NCBI GenBank assembly: GCA_050742415.1
Contig: JBOGIF010000045.1
Span: forward strand, 1-49,123
DNA from: Acidimicrobiales bacterium
Lineage (GTDB): Bacteria > Actinomycetota > Acidimicrobiia > Acidimicrobiales > AC-14
DNA: 49,123 bases
Direction: 5' to 3'
Shown: piece after piece, positions 31,994 to 42,298 of the stretch
How positions within the stretch are numbered: position 1 is the first letter of the stretch
How the letters are laid out: the number at the start of each line of letters is the position of its first letter
Translations under genes and position numbers: made by a program
Notes under the pieces: generated by a model
What the model was told of the DNA's origin: nothing
Database searches by the model: none
What the model saw: the letters and a program-made list of their open reading frames with translations, nothing else

Positions 31994-34456
31994 ATGAGTG
32001 AGAACGGCACGACCCCTTCCGGGCAACTGGCTCGGCCCGGCGTCGGGCCCAACCAGGCGCGACACGAGAGCCGACCTCGGGACGACGAGCGCCCCACCCG
32101 CAAGCCACAGGGGGGCTGGGACCGGGTCAAGGTCCTCGTCCTGCTTCTGAGCCTGCTGGGGCTCTCGGTGTGGACGGCTGTCGCCGACAGCCCCATCCTC
32201 CCCGTCGCCGACGCGGTCAACCAGGTGCTGGCGTCGTCGACCGGCCGGTTCCTGATCTTCCTCGTTGTCTTGGAGGTGATCCGCCAGCTCCACTACTGGA
32301 TCAGCGAGCGCTCCGCGCCCTATCACCAGTTCTGGACCAAGCGGTTCTTCGCCAGTATCAACCGCCGGACCGAGGGCATGAACTCGTGGACCCGGTTCCG
32401 GATCGGGCGGCTGGTGAGGGTTGCCGTGGTCCTGGCCATCGTCGGCTCGGTGCTCGGCCGGATGCTCGGCCGGCCCCCGCTGATCGCGCTGTTCGAGGCG
32501 CCGGCGAAGGCGATCGCGGCCCTCCCGATGCTGTTCCAGTTCGCCCTGCTGTTCTTCGTGATCATCATCCAGTTCGTCGGCATGGCGTGGTACGCCGCTC
32601 GCCAGGGGATCGAGGTCTACTTCCCCGACGACATCAAGACGCGCTTCGGCGACGTCTGGGGCCAGGACCACGTGCTCGACCGGGTCCGGGAGAACATCCT
32701 GTTCCTCGAGAACCCCGATTCCATCGAGGCCAAGGGCGGCTACGTGCCGGCTGGCATCCTGCTCTGGGGCCCGCCCGGCACCGGCAAGACGCTGATGGCC
32801 GAGGCGGTCGCCGGTGAGACCGGCAAGCCCTACGTGTTCGTCGACCCCGGTGGGCTGACCGCCTTCGGCTTCGGGGCGCTGGCCGTCAAGGGCGTGTTCC
32901 GCAAGCTCCGCAAGCTGGCTACCCGCTACGGAGGCGTCATCGTGTTCTTCGACGAGGCCGACGCCCTCGGGAGCCGGGTCATGACCCAGCCGAAGCCAAC
33001 CGGCGCATCAGGGGCCGTCTGGGCCCACAACCCGGCCTGCAACGGCATGTCGTACCTCGACCCCCGCACCGCCAACCTTCTGCACACCTCGGCGATGTCG
33101 TCGGCCCTGGCCAGCGAGCCTGAGGAAGGCGGACGACTCCTCCGCAACCGCTTCTTCATGATGGGCGGAGGCGGGGGCGGCGGGATGCTCCAGGCCCTGC
33201 TGACCGAGATCTCCGGGCTCAAGAAGCCCCGGGGCTTCATGAACCGGGTCGTCCGCCGGTCGTTGGGCATGCGGCCGAAGCCCCCGCCCAAGTACCGGAT
33301 CCTCGTCATGATGGCCACCAACCTGCCCGAGGCCCTCGACGAGGCCCTGCTGCGCCCGGGCCGGATCGACCGGGTCTACAAGGTGGGGTACCCCTCCAAG
33401 CCGGGCCGGATCCGCACCTACGAGGGCTACCTGGCGAAGGTCCGCCACGAGCTCACCGCCGCCGACATCGACAAGCTGGCCACCATCACCCCCTACGCCA
33501 CCGGGGCCATCATCAAGGACCTCGTGAACGAGGCGCTGATCCAGTGCATCCGCGACGGCCGCGAGGTGATCACCTGGGGCGACATGGTCAAGGCCAAGCA
33601 CTTCAAGATGCTGGGCCCCCCCGAGGACGTCGAGTACATCGAGCGGGAACGCCACGCTGTGGCCGTCCACGAGGCCTGCCACGCCGTCGCCGCCTACCGG
33701 GTGCGACGTCACCTCACCATCGACATCGCCACCATCGAGAAGGGTGGCACCTACCTGGGCATGGTGGCGTCGATCAAGCCGGAGGACCGGTTCACCCTAT
33801 GGCGGACCGAGTACGAGGCCGATGTCGTCGTCTCTCTCGCCTCGCTCGCCGGGGAGAGGCTGTTCTTCGACGGCGACAACTCGTCGGGCGTCTCCGGCGA
33901 CCTGGAGAGCGCGACCGAGGTGGCCACCCTGATGGAGGGCTACTGGGGCATGGGCACGAGCGTGACCTCCCACGGGGTCACCCATAAGGTGGGCATCGGA
34001 GGGGGCGGCAAGCCGGGCGAGAAGAAGGGCAAGGACGGCAAGGGCGAGCCCGACTTGCTCAACTCCAGCCTGGGCGAGCGCATCGAGGAGAACCTCGGCC
34101 ATCTCCTGGTCCGGGCCGAGCAGCTCCTGCGGGAGAACCGCCTTGAGGTGTTGGCGGTGGCGCACGCCCTCGAGACCCATAAGACGGTGTCGGGAGAGGA
34201 CATCGAAGCCGTCATCGAGGGTCGCCGGGGACCGCTGGTCGACGGCCGGGTGTACGCCGACCCGGGGTTCGCTGCCGTGGTCGAGGCCTACCACTCCCAG
34301 GCGGTGGTCGCCCACAAGGGCAGCGCCGGCTTCGACATCCCCTTGCCCGTGCTCAACGGGCACCGCCCGGAGTACGACAGCGAAGGTGTCGCTGTCCCCG
34401 ATACTGGCGACGGCTCGCCGTGGGCCCGCCCGGCGGGCGAGGACAGCGGCAACTGA
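31994..34456 (+). CDS. Atypical FtsH-like AAA+ ATPase / M41 zinc metalloprotease
   Basis: About 4 N-terminal TM segments, Walker A GPPGTGKT, Walker B VIVFFDEADA, second region of homology LLRPGRIDR and HEXXH (VHEACHAV). Large insertions after Walker B include a MMGGGGGGGM tract. Confidence 0.85.
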   Translation: MSENGTTPSGQLARPGVGPNQARHESRPRDDERPTRKPQGGWDRVKVLVLLLSLLGLSVWTAVADSPILPVADAVNQVLASSTGRFLIFLVVLEVIRQLHYWISERSAPYHQFWTKRFFASINRRTEGMNSWTRFRIGRLVRVAVVLAIVGSVLGRMLGRPPLIALFEAPAKAIAALPMLFQFALLFFVIIIQFVGMAWYAARQGIEVYFPDDIKTRFGDVWGQDHVLDRVRENILFLENPDSIEAKGGYVPAGILLWGPPGTGKTLMAEAVAGETGKPYVFVDPGGLTAFGFGALAVKGVFRKLRKLATRYGGVIVFFDEADALGSRVMTQPKPTGASGAVWAHNPACNGMSYLDPRTANLLHTSAMSSALASEPEEGGRLLRNRFFMMGGGGGGGMLQALLTEISGLKKPRGFMNRVVRRSLGMRPKPPPKYRILVMMATNLPEALDEALLRPGRIDRVYKVGYPSKPGRIRTYEGYLAKVRHELTAADIDKLATITPYATGAIIKDLVNEALIQCIRDGREVITWGDMVKAKHFKMLGPPEDVEYIERERHAVAVHEACHAVAAYRVRRHLTIDIATIEKGGTYLGMVASIKPEDRFTLWRTEYEADVVVSLASLAGERLFFDGDNSSGVSGDLESATEVATLMEGYWGMGTSVTSHGVTHKVGIGGGGKPGEKKGKDGKGEPDLLNSSLGERIEENLGHLLVRAEQLLRENRLEVLAVAHALETHKTVSGEDIEAVIEGRRGPLVDGRVYADPGFAAVVEAYHSQAVVAHKGSAGFDIPLPVLNGHRPEYDSEGVAVPDTGDGSPWARPAGEDSGN

Positions 34457-34474
34457 GGTAGTCACCGGCGGGGC

Positions 34475-35176
34475 TCAGACGAGGTCGAGCACGGCGCGCA
34501 GGTCGGCTATACGGGAGGCGCCCTCGGGCAGCGCAGGGAGGCCGTCGCCTTCGTGGCGGTGGTCGGGCCGGCGCAGGTGGGCGGCCCGCATGCCGAGGGC
34601 CAGCGGCCCGGCGACGTCGGGGCCCCATGTGTCACCCACGAACAGCACCTCCGCCGGCGCCAGGCCGCACCGGTCCAACGTGTGGTGGAAGATCCGGGGA
34701 TGGGGCTTGCGCGCCCCAGCCTGGGCGGAGGTGACGACCACGTCGGCGAGCCCGCTGAGCCCGGCCGCCGTCACGGCCCGGTCGATGTGCCAGTCCCAGT
34801 TGGAGCACACAGCCACCTTCACTCCTCGGCGGCGCAGCTCTCCGAGAACATCGGGGACCTCGTTGTAGGCGGCCAACATGTAGTCCTTGGAGACGGCGTA
34901 GAGGTCGGCCACCAGCGCTTCGAGGTCGTCCTCGCCGACGCCGGCGGAACGGGAGCGCTGCCGCAGCCGGTCGAGCTCCCAGGCCCGGTAGTGCTCGGGG
35001 CTCCGGGAGTGCTCGGCATGCTCCTCTCCGTCGAGGGCGCCACCGACCCATCGGTCGGTCCAGGCGGCCTCGTCGTACTGGATGCCGTGGCGGGAGAACA
35101 CCTGCTCATGAGTGTCGCCCCACGACACCGCCCGGGCGAGGGTGCCGTAGAAGTCGAACAGGACCCCGCGGGTCAC
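34475..35176 (-). CDS. HAD-family hydrolase
   Basis: GVLFDFYGTL (DxYGT motif I), ...VAVCSNWD..., ...ARKPHPRIF..., ...LFVGDTWGPDV. Its GTG overlaps the M50 stop (GTGA). Confidence 0.8.
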   Translation of the reverse strand: MTRGVLFDFYGTLARAVSWGDTHEQVFSRHGIQYDEAAWTDRWVGGALDGEEHAEHSRSPEHYRAWELDRLRQRSRSAGVGEDDLEALVADLYAVSKDYMLAAYNEVPDVLGELRRRGVKVAVCSNWDWHIDRAVTAAGLSGLADVVVTSAQAGARKPHPRIFHHTLDRCGLAPAEVLFVGDTWGPDVAGPLALGMRAAHLRRPDHRHEGDGLPALPEGASRIADLRAVLDLV

Positions 35177-36537
35177 ACCCGTCGGGTCCGGGCCAGGTAT
35201 GTCCCGACCAGCCGGTCCCACTCGGCCGGCGAGATGGCGTCGCGCCGGTTGGGCCGGGCGGAGCGCCCGGCGCGAGCCGCGGCCACCGCGAGGGTGAGCA
35301 CGAGTCCCACCAGCGGCAGCGCCAGCAGGGTGATCTGAAGGGCGGCCAGGGTGGCCGGGCCGTAATCGTGGGCGCCGAGCGCCGAGCTGAAGGCGGCACG
35401 CTGGTCGGCCAGGCTGTCCACAGCGGTGGCGATCAGCTCGGGCCCGGCGGTGATGACCCACGCACACCAACCGATGCCAACCGCGACCGCGGCGATCACC
35501 CACGCCGTCACTGCCCTCCGCACACCCGGCCGCAGGGAGGCGACGGCCGGGCTCGGAGGCCGACGGGCCACGGTGGTGGCGAGGACCGGCCGAACGAGTG
35601 GGAACAGGTCCGGCACGCCGGTGAGGTCGCTGACCACGTAGTAGCCGTCGAGGCGGAGGAAGGGCCAGAACTGGCCGGCCATCTCCAGGTGCTGGACGGC
35701 GACCACCACGAGCAACGCCTCGAATCCGGTGACCGCGTAGGCGGCGACTGTGGCCAGGACGAAGATTGCGTTGAAGTAGATGCCGCCCAGGTCGGCCCGC
35801 AGGCGACCGGCACGGTCGAGGCGGTACGTGTCGGTCAGGTCGTTGTAGAAGACGAGCCAGTAGATGTAGATGCCGATGCCGATAGCGCCCGGCCGGGCGC
35901 CCCCGTAGCGGCTGGCGGCGGCGTGGCCGAGCTCGTGGAAGGTGGCCCCCGCCACCAGCACGACGGCGAGCAGCGGAAGGAGAAGGGGCGTGGCGATGGC
36001 GGCACGGAAGGCGGGCCCGGTGCCGTGGACCAGGAACACCCACACGTCGACGACCGCCAGCGCGGCCAGGACGGTGGCCACGACCGCCGGCGCGAACAGC
36101 GGGCGCAGGGCACCGCTCACGGCCCCGACCGCCCGGGCCGGCATCAAGGGCACGCGGAAGCGCAGGCCCAGGAGGGGGTCGGGAAGGGTTCGGGCGGGGG
36201 AGGCGGGCAATCCCTCTCCGACCAGCACGCCCAGGGGCCCCAGCTTGTGGTCGATCAGGTAGGCGACGTTGGCGGCGCTGACCGGCCGTCCCAGCTCCTT
36301 GGTCACCGAGAGGGCGAGGCCGGCGGCATCGCGCCTGCCGTCGGCCGCCGCAACCACCAGGTAGAGCAACCTGGAAAGCTCCACCACCTGGCCGTCGGGC
36401 CGGCGCAGCAGGTAGGAGCCCTCGGAGCGGCCGGACCCCTGGTACGGCCCGAGGAACTCGACACCAGGCACCAGGGCCGGGGCTTCAGATGCAGAGAGGG
36501 GTGGCGCGAAGCCACCCCTCTCTGGTGCTGCGGGCAA
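35173..36537 (-). CDS. M50/site-2-protease-like polytopic membrane zinc metalloprotease ('peptide zinc metalloprotease' type)
   Basis: HExxH in a TM helix (TFHELGHAAASRYG) plus FLRLDGYYVVSD (LDG motif), with multiple TM segments. The track start TTG 36537 lies upstream of, and reads through, the hairpin at 36492-36524. GTG 36471 (VPGVEFLGPYQGSG...) is an alternative start. Confidence 0.8.
   Translation of the reverse strand: MPAAPERGGFAPPLSASEAPALVPGVEFLGPYQGSGRSEGSYLLRRPDGQVVELSRLLYLVVAAADGRRDAAGLALSVTKELGRPVSAANVAYLIDHKLGPLGVLVGEGLPASPARTLPDPLLGLRFRVPLMPARAVGAVSGALRPLFAPAVVATVLAALAVVDVWVFLVHGTGPAFRAAIATPLLLPLLAVVLVAGATFHELGHAAASRYGGARPGAIGIGIYIYWLVFYNDLTDTYRLDRAGRLRADLGGIYFNAIFVLATVAAYAVTGFEALLVVVAVQHLEMAGQFWPFLRLDGYYVVSDLTGVPDLFPLVRPVLATTVARRPPSPAVASLRPGVRRAVTAWVIAAVAVGIGWCAWVITAGPELIATAVDSLADQRAAFSSALGAHDYGPATLAALQITLLALPLVGLVLTLAVAAARAGRSARPNRRDAISPAEWDRLVGTYLARTRRV
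36492..36524 (-). terminator. Perfect 14-bp GC-rich hairpin between the small peptide ORF and the protease body (attenuator/terminator candidate)
   Basis: CAGAGAGGGGTGGC (36492-36505) and GCCACCCCTCTCTG (36511-36524) are exact reverse complements with loop GCGAA. It sits 21 nt downstream of the peptide stop on the minus strand. Confidence 0.6.
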
Positions 36538-36545
36538 GGCCGTTG

Positions 36546-36677
36546 TTACAGCTTCACCTTCAACTTGACGAGCTTCAGGGCGTTGAGCTTGATCTTCGCC
36601 ATGAGCTGGCGGGCAGGAAGCAGTTCCACTACCTGTCCGTCGAGCTCGTCGACGGACAGTTCGGTAAGGGGTGCCAC
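36546..36677 (-). CDS. Unannotated 43-aa peptide: acidic N-terminal half, Lys/Leu-rich cationic C-terminal half (candidate precursor peptide)
   Basis: Not in the ORF track (too short). GTG 36677 is preceded by AAAGGAGGA with a 9-nt spacer and an in-frame stop 6 codons upstream. Translation: MAPLTELSVDELDGQVVELLPARQLMAKIKLNALKLVKLKVKL. Most third positions are G/C. Confidence 0.5.
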   Translation of the reverse strand: MAPLTELSVDELDGQVVELLPARQLMAKIKLNALKLVKLKVKL

Positions 36678-36813
36678 AGGTGAGTTCCTCCTTTGTCAGC
36701 GTGCGAATCGAAAGCCTCGCCGTAGTAACTCGCCGCTCTCCCAGCCGGACTCACCGACGAGACCGGACCCAGGATCGCACTCCTGTCGTAGGCGGGTCAA
36801 GGCAGAAACTCAC

Positions 36814-37551
36814 TCAGCGTGAATCTTGTCCCACTCTGACAGCCTGCGTCTGGACGCCGGGGGCGGCCGCCTCCCGGAGCCGGAGCCACCCGAAGACCGT
36901 GCCCGTGACGAGCCACAGGCAGCTGGTGCCGGCCAGGCTGGCCAGCCGGAACTGCCACACCAGGGTGGCGGGAACGTCGATCACGTCGGGGCTGGCGGGC
37001 AAGGCCAGGAACCCGGCACCGACCAATGCCAGGTAGGTGGCGGCGGTAGCCGGTACCCGTAGGTGTTCGGGCACGGCCTTCGCCGTCATCGACCGCCAGG
37101 CCCGCCAGGTCGCCCAGGAAGCCACGACCGACCACGCCAGCAGAACCACGTACAACAGGGTCCGGCGGCCGATCGTGGATGGGTTGCCGACGGCCGGCGG
37201 GTTGGCCGGGTACTTGAGGAACGGGACGACGAACACGGTGGCCAGGCCGGTGACGGCCAGTCCCATAGCCGCCCGCCAGTCGCCGCCGGACGCCAAACGG
37301 CGACTAACGGCGGCGAACACCACCGAGAACACAATCCCGACGGCCAGGCCGTAGAGAACGGCGGCGGCCGCCCCACCGGCCTGTTGCGCCCCCCGCCCGA
37401 ACATCTCGGCGGCGCCGCCCGTGGGTTGGCGTTCGGCCTCGATGGCTATGGCCCGGCCGATCGGGCCCTCGCCGGCGATGGCCAGGACGGCGGCCATGGC
37501 GAGGCCGCCGGCCGTACCGGCGAGGGCCCCGTGGGCCAGATGACGTCGCAT
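36814..37551 (-). CDS. cbtA: Cobalt transporter subunit CbtA
   Basis: Multi-TM protein directly after cbtB at the end of the cobalamin operon. Sequence style (…FLKYPANPPAVGNP…) fits CbtA. Confidence 0.8.
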   Translation of the reverse strand: MRRHLAHGALAGTAGGLAMAAVLAIAGEGPIGRAIAIEAERQPTGGAAEMFGRGAQQAGGAAAAVLYGLAVGIVFSVVFAAVSRRLASGGDWRAAMGLAVTGLATVFVVPFLKYPANPPAVGNPSTIGRRTLLYVVLLAWSVVASWATWRAWRSMTAKAVPEHLRVPATAATYLALVGAGFLALPASPDVIDVPATLVWQFRLASLAGTSCLWLVTGTVFGWLRLREAAAPGVQTQAVRVGQDSR

Positions 37552-37575
37552 TGGGACCTCCTGGAAGACTCGGGG

Positions 37576-37803
37576 CTAGTGGCAGGGGACGCCGAGGAAG
37601 TGGCGGCCGTCGTGGAAAAGCTCGTGCAGGGTCGTGGCGCCGGCCTTCAGGACCACGCCGTTCTCCATGGTGACGGCGTAGACCAGCGCCAGGGCCAGGA
37701 CCACCACGGCCCACGCCCACGTCGGGATGCTGATCCCGTCTGCCGGCCGCTCGACGCTGCCGTCGGGGTTGATCGTCTCGCGCTCGAGGTTGTCGAAGTT
37801 CAT
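37576..37803 (-). CDS. cbtB: Cobalt transporter subunit CbtB
   Basis: 75 aa, one TM and the conserved C-terminus LHELFHDGRHFLGVPCH. Confidence 0.85.
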   Translation of the reverse strand: MNFDNLERETINPDGSVERPADGISIPTWAWAVVVLALALVYAVTMENGVVLKAGATTLHELFHDGRHFLGVPCH

Positions 37804-38663
37804 CTCACCTCCTCGGTTTCGCTAGGGGGGATGCTCGAAGAGTGGGAATGGTGGTGCCCGTGGCCGGGCAGCGACACCCGGTAGACGCAGAGGTCGCAGT
37901 TCATGCGCACGTCGCCCTCTAGCGCTTCGCGGTAGCGCTCCAGGACCAGGGCCGCCACCCGGGCATCGGGGCCGAGGTGGGCACCGTTGCACACATGCAC
38001 GTCGGGGTTGTCGCCCGCCCACGCCGCCGCCTGGTCCCGGATCCGCTCGACCAGGATCCCGGTGAAGAGGAAGTACGGCACCACCGCTATGCGTTCGGCG
38101 CCGAGGCGCCGGCAGCGGTCCAGGGCGGCGGGGACGCTCGGGGCCGCCAGGGAGACGAAGGCTGGCTCGACGATGTCCAGACCCCGGGAGTCACCCAGCA
38201 GGCGGGCCACCTTGTAGAGGTCGGCGTTGGCGTCTGGATCCGACGAACCCCGGCCGACCACCACGACCGCAGTGGCGGATGGGTCGGCGTCGCCGATGGC
38301 GGCCCGGATGCGTTCCTCAGCCACCGCCAGGACCAGCGGGTGGATACCGAGGTCTCGGGCATAGCGGAAGTCGACCCCGGGATGGCGGTGGCGGCCGCGG
38401 TGGAGAGCGGCGGGCCCGTCGTTCTTCATGTGGCCGGCGCCGAGCAGCACCAGCGGCGTGGCCACGACCGAGGTGGCACCGCCCGCCACGAGCGAGTCGA
38501 CGGCGGTGTCCAGATCAGGCCCCGCCAGCTCGATGAAGCCGCAGCCCACGGCCAGCTCGGGGGCCTTCGCCGCTACGGCCGAGGCCAGCCCCCAGTACTC
38601 GGCGACGCCGGCGGCCGAGCGGCTGCCGTGGCCGACGAGGAGCATCGACGGCTTCTCAGCCAT
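37800..38663 (-). CDS. cbiX: Sirohydrochlorin cobaltochelatase CbiX (long form with a His-rich tail)
   Basis: MLLVGHGSR..., a second half VVVVGRGSSDPDAN, a C-terminal CDLCxY segment and the PGHGHHHSHS tail. ATG at 38663. Confidence 0.85.
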   Translation of the reverse strand: MAEKPSMLLVGHGSRSAAGVAEYWGLASAVAAKAPELAVGCGFIELAGPDLDTAVDSLVAGGATSVVATPLVLLGAGHMKNDGPAALHRGRHRHPGVDFRYARDLGIHPLVLAVAEERIRAAIGDADPSATAVVVVGRGSSDPDANADLYKVARLLGDSRGLDIVEPAFVSLAAPSVPAALDRCRRLGAERIAVVPYFLFTGILVERIRDQAAAWAGDNPDVHVCNGAHLGPDARVAALVLERYREALEGDVRMNCDLCVYRVSLPGHGHHHSHSSSIPPSETEEVR

Positions 38664-38665
38664 GG

Positions 38666-39244
38666 TCAGCCATCCTGGGCCAGACGAACGAGAGCGTTGA
38701 CTACGGCGGCCGCCACCGCGCTGCCGCCCTTCTCGCCCACATTGGAGATGGCGGTGAGGTCGGTGGCCCGCAACGACTCCTTGGCCTCGGCCGCGCCCAC
38801 GAAGCCCACGGGCATCCCGACCACGAGGGCCGGCCGGAACCCGTCGCGGCGATGCAGCCTGACCACCTCTTCGAGGGCGGTGGGCGCACACCCCACCACG
38901 ACCACGGCGCCGTGGGGATGGTGAGCGGCGGCGAGGCGTATGCCGGCGGCGGAGCGCGTGGACGTACCGGTGACCGCTTCTGGCAAGTAGCATAGAGCCG
39001 CGGCGCCGGTGATCCCGTGGCGCACCACCTCCACGTCGGTGACCACGGGGCCGCCGGCGCCCAATGCCGCGACGCCGGCGGCGACGGCGTCCTCGTCGAG
39101 CACCATGCTCGAGGCGTAGTCGAGGTCGGCGCTGGCGTGGATGACCCGCGCCACCACCGCGGCGACGCCCGGACCGAGACGCGAGAGGTCGACCCGGCCG
39201 GCCAGGATGCGGTAGCTCTCCGCCTCGATCGGATGGATGGTCAC
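38666..39244 (-). CDS. cbiC: Precorrin-8X / cobalt-precorrin-8 methylmutase
   Basis: ...IHPIEAESYRIL..., ...VIHASADLDY..., ...VVGCAPTAL..., ...GMPVGFVGAAEAKE..., ...GEKGGSAVAAAVVNAL. Confidence 0.88.
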   Translation of the reverse strand: MTIHPIEAESYRILAGRVDLSRLGPGVAAVVARVIHASADLDYASSMVLDEDAVAAGVAALGAGGPVVTDVEVVRHGITGAAALCYLPEAVTGTSTRSAAGIRLAAAHHPHGAVVVVGCAPTALEEVVRLHRRDGFRPALVVGMPVGFVGAAEAKESLRATDLTAISNVGEKGGSAVAAAVVNALVRLAQDG

Positions 39245-39429
39245 AGCTCGCTCACCGCGTCGCGCGGGCAGACCTCGATGCACGCCAGGCAGCCGGTGCA
39301 GCGCTCCGCTACCACGACCGGTCGATGGCGGGCGCGCAGCAGGGCGTGGGTGGGGCAGGTGGCGACGCACATGCCGCACGCTGTGCACCGGTAGTCGATC
39401 ACGACCGCGCCTCTCGTCGGCGTGGTCAC
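39241..39429 (-). CDS. Small 2x[4Fe-4S] ferredoxin
   Basis: CTACGMCVATCP and CTGCLACIEVCP motifs in 62 aa. GTGA overlaps at both ends (with cbiGH and cbiC). Confidence 0.75.
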   Translation of the reverse strand: MTTPTRGAVVIDYRCTACGMCVATCPTHALLRARHRPVVVAERCTGCLACIEVCPRDAVSEL

Positions 39430-41081
39430 GGGGCCAGCCCTCGAGGCGTGACCATGCGGCCGGCCACGACGCGGGTGGTCGACGAGCCCACGATCACGCA
39501 GCTCGCCATGCCCACCAGCGAGGTGTCGAGCGCGGCCAGCGTGGTCACGGCCACGCTTTGGCCGGGCCGGGCGGCGTCGGTGACGACGCCCACCGGCGTC
39601 GAGGGATGCCGGTGCTCCAGGAGGAGCTCCCGGGCGGAGTCGAGCTGCCAGGTCCGGCCGGCCGACCGGGGGTTGTACAGGACGACGACGAGGTCGGCTG
39701 CGGCGGCGGCCCGCAGCCGGGCCTTGATGGCGGACCACGGCGTGCGCAGGTCGGACAGGCTCACGACGGCGTGGTCGTGGCCGAGAGGCGCTCCCAGGAC
39801 GGCGGCGGCGGCGAGGCCCGCGGGCACGCCGGGGACCACGTCGACCTCGACAGCCGTCCCGTCAGCGGCCTCCAGGGCGAGCGAAGCCATGCCGTACACG
39901 CCGGCGTCGCCCGAGCAGACAAGCGCGCAGCGACGGCCGGCGGCGGCTTCGGCCACCGCCTGCTTGGCCCGCACCGCCTCGTCGCCGATGGGGCTGCGGA
40001 CCACCTCCTGGGCCGGGCTCAGCAGGTCGGCGCACTGGTCGACGTAGGGGCCGTAGCCAATGACGACGTCGGCGTGGCGCACGGCGGTCTCGGCTGCAGG
40101 GGTCCGGTGACGCCGGTCGCCCGGGCCCAGGCCGACCACCGACAGATGGCCCCGAGGACGGCGGCGGCGGGCGATGGCGACGGTGGCCGACGCCGAGGCC
40201 CGCTTGGCCACCACCAGCTCGGCACCGGGCCCGGCCGCCGACAGGGCAGCGGCCTCGGCCACGCTGGGGGTGCCGACAGCGGCGCGCACCACCTCGCTCG
40301 GCGTGGGGACATCGACGGTGGCCAACACGGGAGCGGGGAACGTCCGCAGCGGAAGGCCCAGCGCCACGATGGCGGGTTCGGCGGCCTTGCGGTCCAGCGT
40401 CGCCACCTCGGCCACCGATGCCCGGGCCAGGCCGGCTCCTTGCAGGGCCGCGGTCAGGAGGTCAGCCAGCTCGGCGGCCGGTGCGCCGGTCGACGCCCCG
40501 ATCCCGGCGACCAGCGACGGCGGATGGAGCACGGCCGTGCCGGGCGCGGGGGAGAGAGCGAAGTCGGTCACCACGATGCGCTCGGGGCCGGTGCCCGAGT
40601 CGACGACGGAGGCGGGCAGGGGCCAGTCGAGCGGGTTCTCGACGACTGCCCGCCGGCCGTCGAGCATGGCCGCGGTGACTCCTGCCACGTCGCCGGCGGC
40701 GATGAGCCCGGGGAGGCCGTCGATGGCGGCGACGCCGGTCGCGTCGGTGGCGGTGCTCACGACCGGTGTGGCTCCGAGCCAGCCGGCCACCTGCCGGGCC
40801 AGGTCGTTGGCGCCACCGGCATGGCCCCCGCAGAGAGCCACCGCGAACCGCCCGGCCTCGTCCACGCAGACCACTGCCGGGTCGGTGGCCTTGTCGGCCA
40901 GGAGGGGGGCGACGATGCGCACGGCGGCTCCGGTGGCGAGGAACAGGACGAACGCATCCGCGGTCCCAGCCCGCCAGACGTCTGGCACGATCTCGCCGGC
41001 GCGGCCGTGGCGGTGCTCGAACGGCAGCCGGCCGGCCAGGTCTCCTCCCCGCTCGGTGACCGAGACCGACAGGACGTTCAC
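39426..41081 (-). CDS. cbiGH: Fusion of CbiG (cobalt-precorrin-5A hydrolase) and CbiH/CobJ (precorrin-3B C17-methyltransferase)
   Basis: N-terminal CbiG-like (…LFLATGAAVRIVAPLL…VVCVDEAGRFAVALCGGHAGGANDLA…), C-terminal tetrapyrrole methylase (…LSVVGLGPGD…VCSGDAGVYGMAS…). GTG 41081 overlaps the upstream stop. Confidence 0.85.
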   Translation of the reverse strand: MNVLSVSVTERGGDLAGRLPFEHRHGRAGEIVPDVWRAGTADAFVLFLATGAAVRIVAPLLADKATDPAVVCVDEAGRFAVALCGGHAGGANDLARQVAGWLGATPVVSTATDATGVAAIDGLPGLIAAGDVAGVTAAMLDGRRAVVENPLDWPLPASVVDSGTGPERIVVTDFALSPAPGTAVLHPPSLVAGIGASTGAPAAELADLLTAALQGAGLARASVAEVATLDRKAAEPAIVALGLPLRTFPAPVLATVDVPTPSEVVRAAVGTPSVAEAAALSAAGPGAELVVAKRASASATVAIARRRRPRGHLSVVGLGPGDRRHRTPAAETAVRHADVVIGYGPYVDQCADLLSPAQEVVRSPIGDEAVRAKQAVAEAAAGRRCALVCSGDAGVYGMASLALEAADGTAVEVDVVPGVPAGLAAAAVLGAPLGHDHAVVSLSDLRTPWSAIKARLRAAAAADLVVVLYNPRSAGRTWQLDSARELLLEHRHPSTPVGVVTDAARPGQSVAVTTLAALDTSLVGMASCVIVGSSTTRVVAGRMVTPRGLAP

Positions 41082-42298
41082 GGCGTCTGCTCCGAGCCCG
41101 GTCCCCAGGCGACGAGCACGGGGTTCTCGGCCGCCAAGCGGACCCCTCCACCCGGGAGGGCGCATCCTCGGCTGACGCTCACCTGGGCCAGGTTCCCGAG
41201 GCGCCGGTAAGCAGCCGCCGCCCGGTCGAGCGCGGCGTAGGTGGCCACCACCCGGCCACCCGGCCGTAGCCGGGCCAGCACGGCATCGAGCACGTCCAGC
41301 CCGCCTCCACCCACGAAGACCCGGTCGGGGTCGGGCAGCCAGGAGAGGGCGTCTGGGGCGTCACCCGCCACCACCTCGACCGTCACACCGTGGGCGGTAG
41401 CGTTGGCGGCCACCGTTGCCACCGCTTCGGGGTCGCGGTCGACGGCCATCACCCGCAGCGCCGGGGCCAGGAGCGCGCACTCGACGGCCACGCTGCCGCT
41501 TCCGGCGCCGACGTCCCACACGACGCCAACGCGGGGCAGAGCCAGCTTGCCAAGGACCACGGCGCGCACCTCGGCCTTGGTGATCATGCCCTGGCGGTGG
41601 GCGAAGCCGGCTTCGGGCAGCCCCCATGCCAAGGTCTTCTCGCCCGCGCACCCGGCGCTTTCGTGGGAGTTGCCGCCGAGCAGCACGACCACCGACAAGG
41701 GATCCCACGTGCCGGCGCCCAGGCCGGCGAGGTCGGTCGTGGTGACCGTCTCGCCCTCCAGCCCGAGGCGGCTGGCTACCGCTACGGATCGGTAGCCAAC
41801 GCCGAGTTCGGACAGGGCGCGGCCCACCGCTTCCGGCGGGTTCTCGGGCGACGTCAGCACTGCCGCCTTGGGTGCGGCCGCCACCTGCCGGACGGCGTCC
41901 GCGAGGGGTCGGCCGTGGGCCGAGGCGACGAGGGCGTCGTCCCACGAGAGACCTACGCGGGCGAACGCGAGGGCCACCGACGAGGTGGTCGGGTGGACGG
42001 TGAGCGAGGCGGCCCCGAACCGCTCCGCCAGGGCCCTGGTGATCCCGAAGAAGCCGGGGTCACCGGAAGCCAGCACGCACACTGGCCCGGGCTCCGATGC
42101 GACCGCGTCGAGGGCAGGGCCGATGTCGCCCTCGATGGTGACCTGGCGGCTGGCCAGGTGGCTCCAGGCTTCGAGGTGCCGCCGGCCACCCACCACCAGG
42201 TCGGCGGCCTCGACGGCCCGAACCGCCTCCTTGGTCAGCCCGTCGCTCCCCACCACCATGCCGACGACGGTGATCCGGCGCTGCGGTTCCTCACGCAC
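41078..42298 (-). CDS. cobL: Precorrin-6Y C5,15-methyltransferase (decarboxylating), CbiE/CbiT fusion
   Basis: N-terminal tetrapyrrole methylase (…VLASGDPGFFGI…) and a C-terminal class I methyltransferase (…VWDVGAGSGSVAVE…). Confidence 0.85.
   Translation of the reverse strand: MREEPQRRITVVGMVVGSDGLTKEAVRAVEAADLVVGGRRHLEAWSHLASRQVTIEGDIGPALDAVASEPGPVCVLASGDPGFFGITRALAERFGAASLTVHPTTSSVALAFARVGLSWDDALVASAHGRPLADAVRQVAAAPKAAVLTSPENPPEAVGRALSELGVGYRSVAVASRLGLEGETVTTTDLAGLGAGTWDPLSVVVLLGGNSHESAGCAGEKTLAWGLPEAGFAHRQGMITKAEVRAVVLGKLALPRVGVVWDVGAGSGSVAVECALLAPALRVMAVDRDPEAVATVAANATAHGVTVEVVAGDAPDALSWLPDPDRVFVGGGGLDVLDAVLARLRPGGRVVATYAALDRAAAAYRRLGNLAQVSVSRGCALPGGGVRLAAENPVLVAWGPGSEQTP

What the first reader, a model, noticed from the sequence alone, without database searches (positions are those of the whole stretch)
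34475..36677. Unannotated acidic-leader/cationic-tail peptide gene, perfect hairpin, M50-like membrane protease and HAD hydrolase: candidate peptide maturation module
A 43-codon minus-strand ORF (36546-36677) is too short for the ORF track. It has a strong Shine-Dalgarno (AAAGGAGGA, 9-nt spacer) and a closed frame upstream.

Its product is MAPLTELSVDELDGQVVELLPARQL-MAKIKLNALKLVKLKVKL, and it is sharply bipartite:
- The N-terminal 25 residues carry 5 Asp/Glu and 1 Arg.
- The C-terminal 18 residues carry 6 Lys interleaved with Leu/Val/Ile and no acidic residue. This composition is like an amphipathic membrane-active peptide masked by an anionic leader.

A perfect 14-bp GC hairpin (36492-36524) sits 21 nt after the stop. 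Next comes a polytopic HExxH/LDG M50-type metalloprotease, which is GTGA-coupled to a HAD hydrolase.

The order precursor - stem-loop - processing enzyme is the classic bacteriocin/RiPP operon layout. M50 proteases of the YydH type are known to accompany small exported peptides. I do not recognise this peptide as a described family.
Basis: partly seen in the sequence, partly recalled or inferred. Interest (0 to 1): 0.8.

Follow-up and report, generated by a model that had tools for sequence, protein, structure and literature searches.

The report
Leader-bearing cationic peptide with membrane protease
A real 43-codon gene encodes a peptide with an acidic leader and a lysine/leucine tail, sitting in front of the membrane protease that most likely trims it; the pair belongs to a large, undescribed actinobacterial family related to known peptide natural-product systems.

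Summary

**Supported**
- A leader profile built from 114 short ORFs upstream of homologous proteases in other genomes hits only this ORF in the window (21.7 bits; next best 2.8).
- 63 of 74 homologous loci carry 1-6 such ORFs upstream of the protease. A strong hairpin usually lies between them.
- One metagenomic homologue (P0122, 62% identical) has the same Lys/Leu core length and +6 charge.
- The protease has an N-terminal β3α3 domain resembling a RiPP (ribosomal peptide natural product) recognition element. Its nearest curated relative is the daptide leader peptidase, far below that family's cutoff.

**Not supported**
- The HAD gene is absent from all 80 homologous loci.
- No tailoring enzymes or exporters recur nearby.
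- The core is amphipathic as a β-strand, not as an α-helix.

**Verdict:** a new variant of a known kind, namely a precursor peptide paired with a leader peptidase that has a fused recognition domain. It has its own leader motif (LSxEELx5ExLPxRxxM) and probably no further modification. Cleavage, export and activity are inferred.

The parts
36686..36694 (-). Shine-Dalgarno AAAGGAGGA of the precursor gene
   Evidence: Read directly from the sequence. There are 9 nt between GGAGG and the GTG start. The P0122 gene also has an SD-like AAGGGAG before its ATG.
36600..36677 (-). Leader part of the precursor gene (codons 1-26, MAPLTELSVDELDGQVVELLPARQLM, net charge -4)
   Evidence: It matches the leader profile over all 20 positions (21.7 bits, E 7.7e-6) and is the only hit in the window. 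It has the same register as the leaders of 15 diverse relatives, with L20 and P21 invariant and L12 and R23 conserved in at least 90%.
36546..36599 (-). Core part (codons 27-43, AKIKLNALKLVKLKVKL, +6) plus the TAA stop
   Evidence: Family conservation ends after M26. P0122 has a core of the same length and charge, AKVKLKVLSLAKLKIKL. Against the P0122 gene, differences by codon position are 8/8/18, with 10 synonymous codon differences among 39 codons. The hydrophobic moment peaks at 180°.
36633..36659 (-). Second perfect hairpin (11 bp, 5-nt loop) inside the leader-coding region
   Evidence: Found. It is partly forced by the DELD codons. Its function is unknown and it was not followed up.
36492..36524 (-). 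Perfect 14-bp G+C-rich hairpin between the precursor gene and the protease gene
   Evidence: Folding (z = -4.0). Hairpins at the same position occur in 87% of 61 homologous gaps at or below -28 kcal/mol, against about 30% in controls. L081 also has a hairpin after the P0122 gene.
36196..36471 (-). N-terminal β3α3 winged-helix domain of the protease (residues 1-92 of the 432-aa form), a putative leader-binding RRE (RiPP recognition element)
   Evidence: AlphaFold2 models give strands 5-10, 19-23 and 29-32 and helices 34-42, 49-60 and 66-80 (pLDDT 83-85). The Foldseek top hit is TbiB1 bound to its leader peptide (prob 0.97, TM 0.51/0.56, but E 0.13), and PqqD is also listed. The NCBIfam daptide peptidase model aligns from residue 20.
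35173..36195 (-). Polytopic membrane metalloprotease domain (HELGH at 35923-35937, LDG at 35644-35652) and C-terminal transmembrane helices
   Evidence: Motifs and about 6 hydrophobic segments. NF041824 scores 73 bits and NF058609 29.5 bits. H179, E180, H183, D275 and G276 are invariant in 27 homologues. SpoIVFB is the best membrane-protease structural match (prob 0.72, E 0.32).
34475..35176 (-). HAD-IA hydrolase gene, translationally coupled (GTGA) but not a conserved member of the module
   Evidence: Pfam Hydrolase/HAD_2. It has no tblastn hit in 80 homologous loci.

Best explanation
The 43-codon ORF encodes a precursor peptide. The gene downstream encodes its dedicated leader peptidase.

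**The family.** The pair belongs to a large family, mostly in Actinomycetota, that no curated database describes. In this family, 1-6 tandem short genes sit directly upstream of an intramembrane zinc metalloprotease of the M50/site-2-protease clan. The short genes share a 26-residue acidic leader (consensus L-[ST]-x-[ED]-E-L-[DE]-x4-[EA]-x-L-P-x-R-x-x-[ML]) followed by hypervariable cores. The protease carries an N-terminal RRE-like winged-helix domain.

**Proposed mechanism (inferred, except where marked as shown)**
1. The precursor is translated from its strong SD.
2. The G+C-rich hairpin after its stop limits read-through into the protease gene, or stabilises the short transcript. Precursor therefore exceeds enzyme. 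The positional conservation of the hairpin is shown; its effect is inferred.
3. The cytoplasmic RRE-like domain binds the leader through the invariant L-P-x-R stretch.
4. The membrane-embedded HExxH...LDG site cuts at or next to the end of the conserved leader, after M26 or one residue earlier.
5. This frees the 17-18-residue polycationic core AKIKLNALKLVKLKVKL (+6; calculated monoisotopic mass 1919.34 Da, or 2050.38 Da with Met).
6. The alternating Lys/hydrophobic pattern suits an amphipathic β-strand at a membrane or other interface.

No tailoring enzyme or exporter is encoded in the cassette or recurs near its relatives. The product is therefore most likely matured by proteolysis alone. The protease may also hand it across the membrane. 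The HAD gene is a local passenger.
For: **Leader and gene order**
- The leader profile hits only this ORF in the window.
- 63 of 74 homologous loci have leader-bearing ORFs within 2.5 kb upstream of the protease, on the same strand.
- Conserved leaders sit on cores of unrelated sequence: Cys-rich, Gly/Asn-rich, hydrophobic, Ala/Asn-rich and Lys/Leu.

**Relatives of the peptide**
- P0122 is an independent metagenomic relative with the same core type, length and charge. Its codon differences are biased to the third position.
- P0123 and L041 carry an almost identical ELPARQLM leader on a different core. In L041 the gene lies upstream of a protease homologue. In the P0123 contig a further same-strand gene starts 43 nt after it.

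**Hairpin**
- Hairpins are enriched between the last precursor gene and the protease. Median best 50-nt energy is -34.8 kcal/mol, against -22.9 inside coding sequence and -25.5 in shuffles.

**Protease**
- HExxH and LDG are invariant in 27 homologues.
- All 27 match the daptide and YydH/LiaK leader-peptidase models.
- The β3α3 N-domain has the lasso-peptide RRE TbiB1, solved with its leader peptide, as its top structural match.
- The daptide paper describes the same architecture: an RRE fused N-terminally to an intramembrane site-2 protease, with several similar short ORFs bearing a conserved leader motif (10.1101/2023.03.08.531785).
Against: - No expression, cleavage or activity data exist.
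- The Foldseek E-values are not significant (0.13 for the RRE, 0.32 for SpoIVFB). Pfam M50 scores only 12.8 bits against a cutoff of 27.2.
- The contigs that carry P0122 end 22-64 nt after the gene. Its linkage to a protease is therefore unseen.
- Identity of the RRE-like domain does not track leader subtype, so no co-variation supports recognition.
- How a +6 peptide would leave the cell without a transporter is unexplained.
- The window is only 49 kb. Tailoring genes elsewhere in the genome cannot be excluded.
Confidence: 0.75

Rival explanations
1. A cryptic modified RiPP. The peptide is tailored by enzymes encoded elsewhere in the genome, for example daptide-like or epimerase-like enzymes, or by the adjacent HAD hydrolase. 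The protease only performs the last step.
For: The nearest curated protease families both belong to pathways with tailoring enzymes. The HAD gene is translationally coupled to the protease. Only 49 kb of the genome is visible.
Against: - The peptide ends in Leu, not the invariant Thr of daptides.
- No aminotransferase, alcohol dehydrogenase, methyltransferase, radical-SAM or YcaO gene lies in the genes scanned on either side, from PutA (20193) to CbiG/CobJ (41165).
- No such family recurs among 110 neighbouring proteins of 42 homologous loci.
- HAD is absent from all 80 loci.
- The core has no Ser, Thr or Cys to modify.
Confidence: 0.12
2. The same processing pair, but the product is not an antimicrobial. 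It serves the producer itself, for example as a surface-active or envelope-associated peptide or as a signal, as proposed for other actinobacterial peptides.
For: - The cassettes of relatives sit among housekeeping genes (metK, ruvABC, priA, clp) and lack immunity or export genes.
- The commonest core type (SLINANVAAPVNAAVAANVLSD...) is conserved across orders, unlike typical bacteriocins.
- The later daptide paper also discusses a surfactant-like role for daptides.
Against: The polycationic alternating Lys/Leu core resembles designed and natural membrane-active antimicrobial peptides (my own knowledge). Hypervariable cores on a constant leader are typical of competition-driven diversification.
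Confidence: 0.3
3. The ORF is a chance open frame. The hairpin is simply the terminator of the upstream cbtB-cbtA operon, or a regulatory 5' structure of the protease mRNA.
For: Open frames are frequent in 70% G+C DNA. The ORF lies only 136 nt downstream of cbtA on the same strand. No promoter-like site was found. If the protease starts at TTG 36537, the hairpin lies inside its coding region.
Against: - The leader profile match is unique in the window.
- A homologue exists at 62% identity with a third-position-biased substitution pattern.
- The ORF has a strong SD.
- The gene order is conserved in 63 of 74 loci with unrelated upstream genes.
Confidence: 0.04

Closest known systems
Daptide leader peptidase DapP/MpaP with its DapA/MpaA precursors (NCBIfam NF041824; Ren et al. 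2023, 10.1101/2023.03.08.531785)
   Same: - An RRE domain fused N-terminally to an intramembrane site-2-type HExxH protease.
- One to several similar short precursor genes with a conserved acidic leader motif containing E-L-x-P, and variable cores.
- Mostly Actinomycetota.
- Best curated model hit (73 bits, E 2.4e-20, aligned over residues 20-289).
   Different: - The score is far below the 300-bit family cutoff.
- The leader motif is LPxRxxM, not ELExMEAP.
- The peptide ends in Leu, not the invariant Thr.
- No DapB/C/D/M genes or ABC transporters are nearby.
- The core is Lys-rich with β-type periodicity, rather than rich in branched-chain aliphatic residues with a helical structure.
Epipeptide protease YydH/EpeP/LiaK with YydF/EpeX (NCBIfam NF058609; review PMC10885120)
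   Same: An M50-clan intramembrane metalloprotease encoded next to a small peptide precursor. EpeP is thought to perform both cleavage and export. That is the role I infer here in the absence of a transporter.
   Different: - Only 29.5 bits against a cutoff of 225.
- No radical-SAM epimerase or ABC transporter is nearby.
- As far as I recall, YydH has no RRE domain.
- Those systems are from Bacillota, not Actinomycetota.
TMcin system (TmcA/TmcP; PMC13252029)
   Same: The leader peptide is removed by a membrane-embedded protease of the site-2-protease clan with HExxH and a distal Asp. Biosynthesis takes place at the membrane.
   Different: - TmcP is a four-helix DUF3267 (PF11667) protein without an RRE.
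- The precursor contains a transmembrane helix and disulfides.
- It is a Staphylococcus system.
Discrete lasso-peptide RRE TbiB1 and PqqD (PDB 5V1U, 5SXY)
   Same: Best structural matches of the N-terminal domain, with the same β3α3 winged-helix topology.
   Different: - TM-score is only about 0.5, sequence identity is 11-17% and the E-values are not significant.
- Those proteins deliver peptides to a Cys protease/cyclase or to a radical-SAM enzyme.
- They are not fused to a membrane protease.

Membership tests
Daptide biosynthetic system | The protease reaches the NF041824 (daptide_HExxH) family cutoff of 300 bits | tested here: not met
   73 bits, E 2.4e-20. It is a relative, not a member.
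Daptide biosynthetic system | The precursor has an invariant C-terminal Thr and the leader motif ELExMEAP | tested here: not met
   The peptide ends ...KVKL and its leader reads ELLPARQLM.
Daptide biosynthetic system | Co-located DapB (DUF-RRE), DapC (alcohol-dehydrogenase-like), DapD (aminotransferase), DapM (methyltransferase) and ABC transporter genes | tested here: not met
   The neighbouring genes scanned, from 20193 to 41165, are PutA, an ABC-F-type ATPase, Band7, an α/β hydrolase, an FtsH-like protein, HAD, CbtA/B, CbiX, CbiC and CbiG/CobJ, plus three long ORFs with no Pfam hit. None of the required families recurs near 42 homologous loci.
Epipeptide (YydF/EpeX) system | The protease reaches the NF058609 cutoff (225 bits), and a radical-SAM epimerase and ABC transporter are adjacent | tested here: not met
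   29.5 bits. No radical-SAM or exporter gene is nearby.
M50 / site-2-protease clan | An HExxH motif in a hydrophobic helix, plus a distal Asp (LDG) in a later helix | tested here: met
   HELGH at residues 179-183 and LDG at 274-276 of the 432-aa form, both invariant in 27 homologues.
M50 / site-2-protease clan | Pfam PF02163 gathering score, or a significant fold match to a solved site-2 protease | tested here: inconclusive
   PF02163 scores 12.8 bits against a cutoff of 27.2. SpoIVFB (8VJL) is the best membrane-protease match, at prob 0.72, E 0.32 and TM 0.22/0.30.
RiPP recognition element (PqqD-like winged helix) | Three β-strands followed by three α-helices, with a fold match to solved RREs | tested here: inconclusive
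   The topology is met in two models. The top Foldseek hit is TbiB1 with its leader peptide (prob 0.97, TM 0.51/0.56), and PqqD is also listed, but the best E-value is 0.13.
RiPP recognition element (PqqD-like winged helix) | Binds the leader peptide of the cognate precursor | not testable with these tools
   This needs a prediction of the complex or a binding assay. The indirect co-variation test was uninformative.
LPxR-leader precursor family (defined here) | Match to the 20-position leader profile in the same register | tested here: met
   21.7 bits, E 7.7e-6, profile positions 1-20, and the sole hit in the window.
LPxR-leader precursor family (defined here) | Encoded on the same strand directly upstream of the protease with the fused RRE-like domain, with a strong hairpin in between | tested here: met
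   In the window the stop-to-hairpin distance is 21 nt. Across the family, 63 of 74 loci have precursors, and 87% of gaps have a hairpin at or below -28 kcal/mol.
RiPP in the strict sense | A post-translational modification of the core other than leader removal | not testable with these tools
   No candidate tailoring enzyme was found. Mass spectrometry is needed.

The most novel reading that the evidence does not exclude
A widespread two-gene system, mostly in Actinomycetota, in which a site-2-type intramembrane protease with a fused recognition domain is the only machinery needed. It would recognise, cleave and release across the membrane unmodified leader-bearing peptides, with no tailoring enzyme, no ABC transporter and no Sec signal. 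That would be a new route of peptide secretion and maturation. The window's member would deliver a polycationic antimicrobial that is amphipathic as a β-strand, and other members would deliver chemically unrelated cores.
Probability: 0.3. Interest if true: 0.8.

Novelty: new variant of a known kind. Interest (0 to 1): 0.62.

Why it matters
**A large unmined family.**
[quoted passage not shown] The branch found here is much larger.
  - 486 confirmed matches were found among species-representative genomes.
  - More than 1000 proteins matched in the large protein collection.
- Its precursors have no Pfam or NCBIfam model, and I found no paper describing it.

**A minimal system.** The cassette appears to hold only the precursor gene(s) and the protease. 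If so, it is a compact, portable module in which a leader directs cleavage. It would also test whether an intramembrane protease can serve as the exit route for a peptide.

**A ready genome-mining handle.** The conserved leader motif can be searched directly and already retrieves very diverse cores: Cys-rich, Gly/Asn-rich, hydrophobic and Lys/Leu.

**A cheap first experiment.** The window's 17-mer (+6, alternating Lys/hydrophobic) can be synthesised and tested for membrane activity.

Tried and rejected
- **Curated families for the peptide.** Pfam and NCBIfam scans of the window peptide and seven related precursors found nothing meaningful.
- **Word-based search with the peptide.** It found only the peptide itself. 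The exhaustive search was needed to find P0122.
- **Metagenome scans.** Two scans aimed to find more Lys/Leu-core genes with their downstream gene. The protein-pattern scan confirmed none of its 173 pattern matches as relatives. The DNA-pattern scan gave six chance matches.
- **P0122 contigs.** All three stop 22-64 nt after the gene, so the downstream protease could not be checked.
- **α-helical amphipathicity of the core.** Rejected: the moment at 100° is no better than shuffles.
- **HAD as a module member.** Rejected on comparative grounds.
- **RRE-leader co-variation.** Identity of the RRE-like domain (45-59%) does not rank loci by leader subtype, so the test is uninformative.
- **Promoter, terminator and RNA scans.**
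  - No σ70-like promoter was found, and the hairpin lacks a U-tract.
  - Rfam found nothing at gathering score in the window, and nothing at E ≤ 1 around the locus.
- **Whole-protein fold search.** It gave no significant E-values. Only the ranking and probabilities point to SpoIVFB and TbiB1.
- **Literature.** Searches for a description of this family found only the daptide, epipeptide/pearlin and TMcin systems.
Full report
**1. The observation**

Reading the minus strand of 34300-37000 and listing ORFs confirms each feature.
- A GTG-initiated 43-codon ORF lies at 36546-36677. An in-frame TGA at 36696-36698 closes the frame upstream.
- An AAAGGAGGA Shine-Dalgarno precedes the ORF, with 9 nt between GGAGG and the start.
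- The product is MAPLTELSVDELDGQVVELLPARQLMAKIKLNALKLVKLKVKL.
- Charge is sharply split: -4 for residues 1-26 and +6 for residues 27-43.
- A perfect 14-bp stem with a 5-nt loop lies at 36492-36524, 21 nt after the stop. In a 121-nt context the fold is -60.3 kcal/mol, z = -4.0, and none of 200 shuffles does as well. It has no U-tract, and the terminator scan did not list it.
- Downstream lies a polytopic protein with HELGH and LDG. A HAD-family gene follows, whose GTG overlaps the protease TGA.
- The ORF already exists as a called protein in the large protein collection (P0121). It is short, not universally unannotated.

**2. Is the small ORF a gene?**

*Homologues of the protease.* The protease has more than 1000 homologues in the protein collection. 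None exceeds about 52% identity, and most come from metagenome-assembled Actinomycetota. An alignment of 27 of them retrieved 486 confirmed matches in species-representative genomes, and I kept 80 loci.

*Short ORFs upstream.* Listing short plus-strand ORFs upstream of each match showed tandem genes of about 50-100 codons in most loci. They share a strikingly conserved acidic N-terminal stretch, typically ...L-[ST]-x-E-E-L-[DE]-x-x-x-G-E-E-L-P-[DE]-R-[EA]-A-M-, followed by different C-terminal parts.

*Profile test.* I built a 20-position profile from 114 unique leaders without using the window. I then scored all 813 six-frame open segments of the window.
- The 43-codon ORF scored 21.7 bits (E 7.7e-6) over all 20 profile positions.
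- The next best segment scored 2.8 bits.
- With the same profile, 63 of 74 loci that have at least 400 nt of upstream sequence carry 1-6 leader-bearing ORFs within 2.5 kb upstream.

*Alignment.* An alignment of 15 diverse members puts the window peptide in the same register. L20 and P21 are invariant, and L12 and R23 are conserved in at least 90%. Conservation stops after residue 26, which is Met or Leu.

*Relatives of the peptide itself.*
- An exhaustive phmmer search of 1.84 billion representatives with the 43-mer found one relative, P0122: MRNELSLDELDREEAAELPARELMAKVKLKVLSLAKLKIKL (38.6 bits, E 5e-5, 62% identity).
  - Its core has the same length, the same six lysines and the same alternating pattern.
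  - At the DNA level, 39 aligned codons show 14 identical, 10 synonymous and 15 non-synonymous differences.
  - Differences by codon position are 8/8/18. The core replacements are conservative: I/V, V/A and A/V, plus an N-to-K and a K-to-S change that leave the charge unchanged.
- A profile search added P0123. Its leader (FSLDELDAQHTAELPARQLMA) is nearly identical to the window's, but its core is hydrophobic. A further gene on the same strand starts 43 nt after it.
- L041 carries the same leader/core type upstream of a protease homologue.

The ORF's GC by codon position (0.72/0.23/0.79) is coding-like. I conclude that the ORF is a real gene of a family with constant leaders and variable cores.

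**3. The hairpin**

In 61 homologous loci I took the gap between the last precursor gene and the protease match and computed the best 50-nt fold.

| Sequence | Median best fold (kcal/mol) | Fraction at or below -28 |
|---|---|---|
| Precursor-protease gap | -34.8 | 87% |
| Same length inside the protease gene | -22.9 | 31% |
| Shuffled gap | -25.5 | 30% |

The stems differ in sequence but are mostly perfect G+C-rich stems of 10-16 bp. The P0122 gene in L081 is also followed by an inverted repeat (GGGCGTCGGG...CCCGACGCCC). The order precursor, hairpin, protease is therefore a conserved feature. Whether the hairpin terminates, attenuates or stabilises transcripts is inferred, not shown.

One caveat concerns the protease start. 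The only in-frame start codons are TTG 36537, 8 nt after the peptide stop, and GTG 36471, the gene caller's choice (P0001, 432 aa). The homologue consensus PxLAxGxELIG aligns with window residues that begin three codons upstream of GTG 36471. If TTG is used, the hairpin lies in codons 5-15 and would act on translation rather than termination.

**4. The protease**

- Pfam M50 is only a weak hit (12.8 bits).
- NCBIfam places the protein and all 27 aligned homologues nearest to the daptide intramembrane metalloprotease model. The window protein scores 73 bits with E 2.4e-20, aligned over residues 20-289, against a cutoff of 300.
- The YydH/LiaK epipeptide protease model comes second, at 29.5 bits against a cutoff of 225.
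- H179, E180, H183, D275 and G276 are invariant. About six hydrophobic segments are present.
- An AlphaFold2 model (pLDDT 84.7, pTM 0.78) shows an N-terminal β-β-β-α-α-α domain (residues 5-80) followed by the helical membrane domain.
- In a Foldseek search of the whole model, the two highest-probability matches are SpoIVFB, an M50 site-2 protease (prob 0.72), and TbiB1 bound to its leader peptide (prob 0.75). Neither E-value is significant.
- The N-domain modelled alone (pLDDT 83) has TbiB1 as its top hit (prob 0.97, TM 0.51/0.56, E 0.13). PqqD is also listed.
- The daptide paper describes exactly this architecture. RRE domains are fused N-terminally to an intramembrane site-2 protease, with several similar short ORFs that bear a conserved leader motif (ELExMEAP). 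The peptidase removes the leader (10.1101/2023.03.08.531785).

I therefore read the N-domain as a leader-binding RRE. Confidence is moderate, because the structural statistics alone are not significant.

**5. What is not part of the module**

- The window's HAD protein has no tblastn hit in any of the 80 loci.
- Many loci of the Ala/Asn-core type instead have a translationally coupled downstream gene. It encodes a 230-280-residue protein with an N-terminal hydrophobic stretch resembling a signal peptide and the motif DNAAIAVNTKDGSxxFxFAF. It has no Pfam match and is absent from the window.
- A Pfam survey of 110 neighbouring proteins from 42 loci shows no recurrent tailoring or export family. 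The most frequent families are housekeeping ones (SAM synthetase, Clp_N, RuvC, PriA), and none occurs more than four times.
- In the window, the neighbouring genes scanned between 20193 and 41165 gave no daptide or epipeptide enzymes. They are:
  - upstream: cbtA, cbtB, cbiX, cbiC and cbiG/cobJ;
  - downstream: an FtsH-like gene, an α/β hydrolase, a Band7 protein, an ABC-F-type ATPase and putA.

**6. Mechanism**

Shown:
- the gene is real;
- leader, hairpin position and gene order are conserved;
- the catalytic motifs are present and invariant.

Inferred:
- the RRE-like domain binds the L-P-x-R leader;
- the HExxH/LDG site cuts at the leader-core boundary, after M26, or after L25 if the daptide spacing of four residues after the Pro applies;
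- the 17-18-residue +6 core is released.

The core has no α-helical amphipathicity (moment 0.27 at 100°, shuffle p = 0.46). It has a strong alternating pattern (0.74 at 180°, p = 0.01). An amphipathic β-strand at an interface is therefore the better structural guess. Export is unexplained. For the epipeptide protease EpeP, a combined cleavage and export role has been proposed (PMC10885120), and the same may apply here.

**7. Comparison and novelty**

The system works like a daptide or epipeptide leader-peptidase pair, but it fails every membership test for both families:
- model cutoffs;
- leader motif;
- C-terminal Thr;
- tailoring genes.

The precursors match no curated family. My literature searches found only the daptide, epipeptide/pearlin and TMcin systems as membrane-protease-processed peptides. 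I class it as a new variant of a known kind. The protease family is large, and the Lys/Leu core currently has just one relative.

**8. Verdict**

The HAD gene should be dropped from the module. 'YydH type' should become 'site-2-type protease with a fused RRE-like domain, nearest to the daptide peptidase'. 'Amphipathic helix-like' should become 'alternating, β-type'. Interest is moderate to high (0.62). This is a concrete, testable lead into an uncharacterised and apparently minimal peptide maturation system, not a new principle.

Noticed in passing
window 36633-36659 (-): A perfect 11-bp inverted repeat with a 5-nt loop lies inside the leader-coding part of the small ORF (CTGTCCGTCGA cgagc TCGACGGACAG, coding LSVDELDGQ). 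It uses a GGA glycine codon, which I would expect to be rare at this G+C content. The DELD codons partly force the repeat. It could affect translation.
   Followed up: no
L004 5632-6336, L046 5683-6438, L021 5725-6558 and many other loci: In loci with the Ala/Asn-rich 'SLINANVAAPVNAAVAANVLSD' cores, the protease gene overlaps by 4 nt a conserved gene. It encodes a 230-280-residue protein with an N-terminal hydrophobic stretch resembling a signal peptide and the motif DNAAIAVNTKDGSxxFxFAF. It has no Pfam match and may be a third component of that sub-family. It is absent from the window.
   Followed up: partly
L001-L080, upstream of the protease match: The commonest precursor type occurs in 2-6 tandem copies per locus. 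It is conserved across Gaiellales, Solirubrobacterales, Acidimicrobiia, Frankiaceae and some Chloroflexota and Dormiibacterota genomes. Other loci have Cys-rich (L066), Gly/Asn-repeat (L079, L080) or hydrophobic (L035, L040, L041) cores on the same leader.
   Followed up: partly
window 34475-35176 (-): The HAD protein's first motif reads DFYGT, with the second Asp replaced by Tyr. As I recall, this is typical of 2-haloacid-dehalogenase-type members. All NCBIfam hits to equivalog and named-subfamily models are below their cutoffs, and only the generic HAD-IA models pass.
   Followed up: no
window 31994-34456 (+): A divergent FtsH-like protein of 820 aa with AAA and M41 domains. It scores only 219 bits against the FtsH model (cutoff 600), and its AAA match is split in two stretches. 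It is convergent with the HAD gene, with 18 nt between the two stop codons.
   Followed up: no
window 36678-41165: A cbtB-cbtA-cbiX-cbiC-cbiG/cobJ cobalamin gene run lies directly upstream on the same strand. No cobalamin riboswitch or any other Rfam family was detected in the window at gathering score, nor at E ≤ 1 in 36300-38400.
   Followed up: partly
window 36471-36537 (-): The protease start codon is ambiguous. TTG 36537 lies 8 nt after the peptide stop, and the hairpin would then be inside the coding region. GTG 36471 is the alternative. Neither has a clear Shine-Dalgarno.
   Followed up: partly
L081-L083: Three contigs from different samples carry the identical P0122 gene, and all end 22-64 nt after it, at or just past the downstream hairpin. 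This may be an assembly break at the structure or at a variable region.
   Followed up: no
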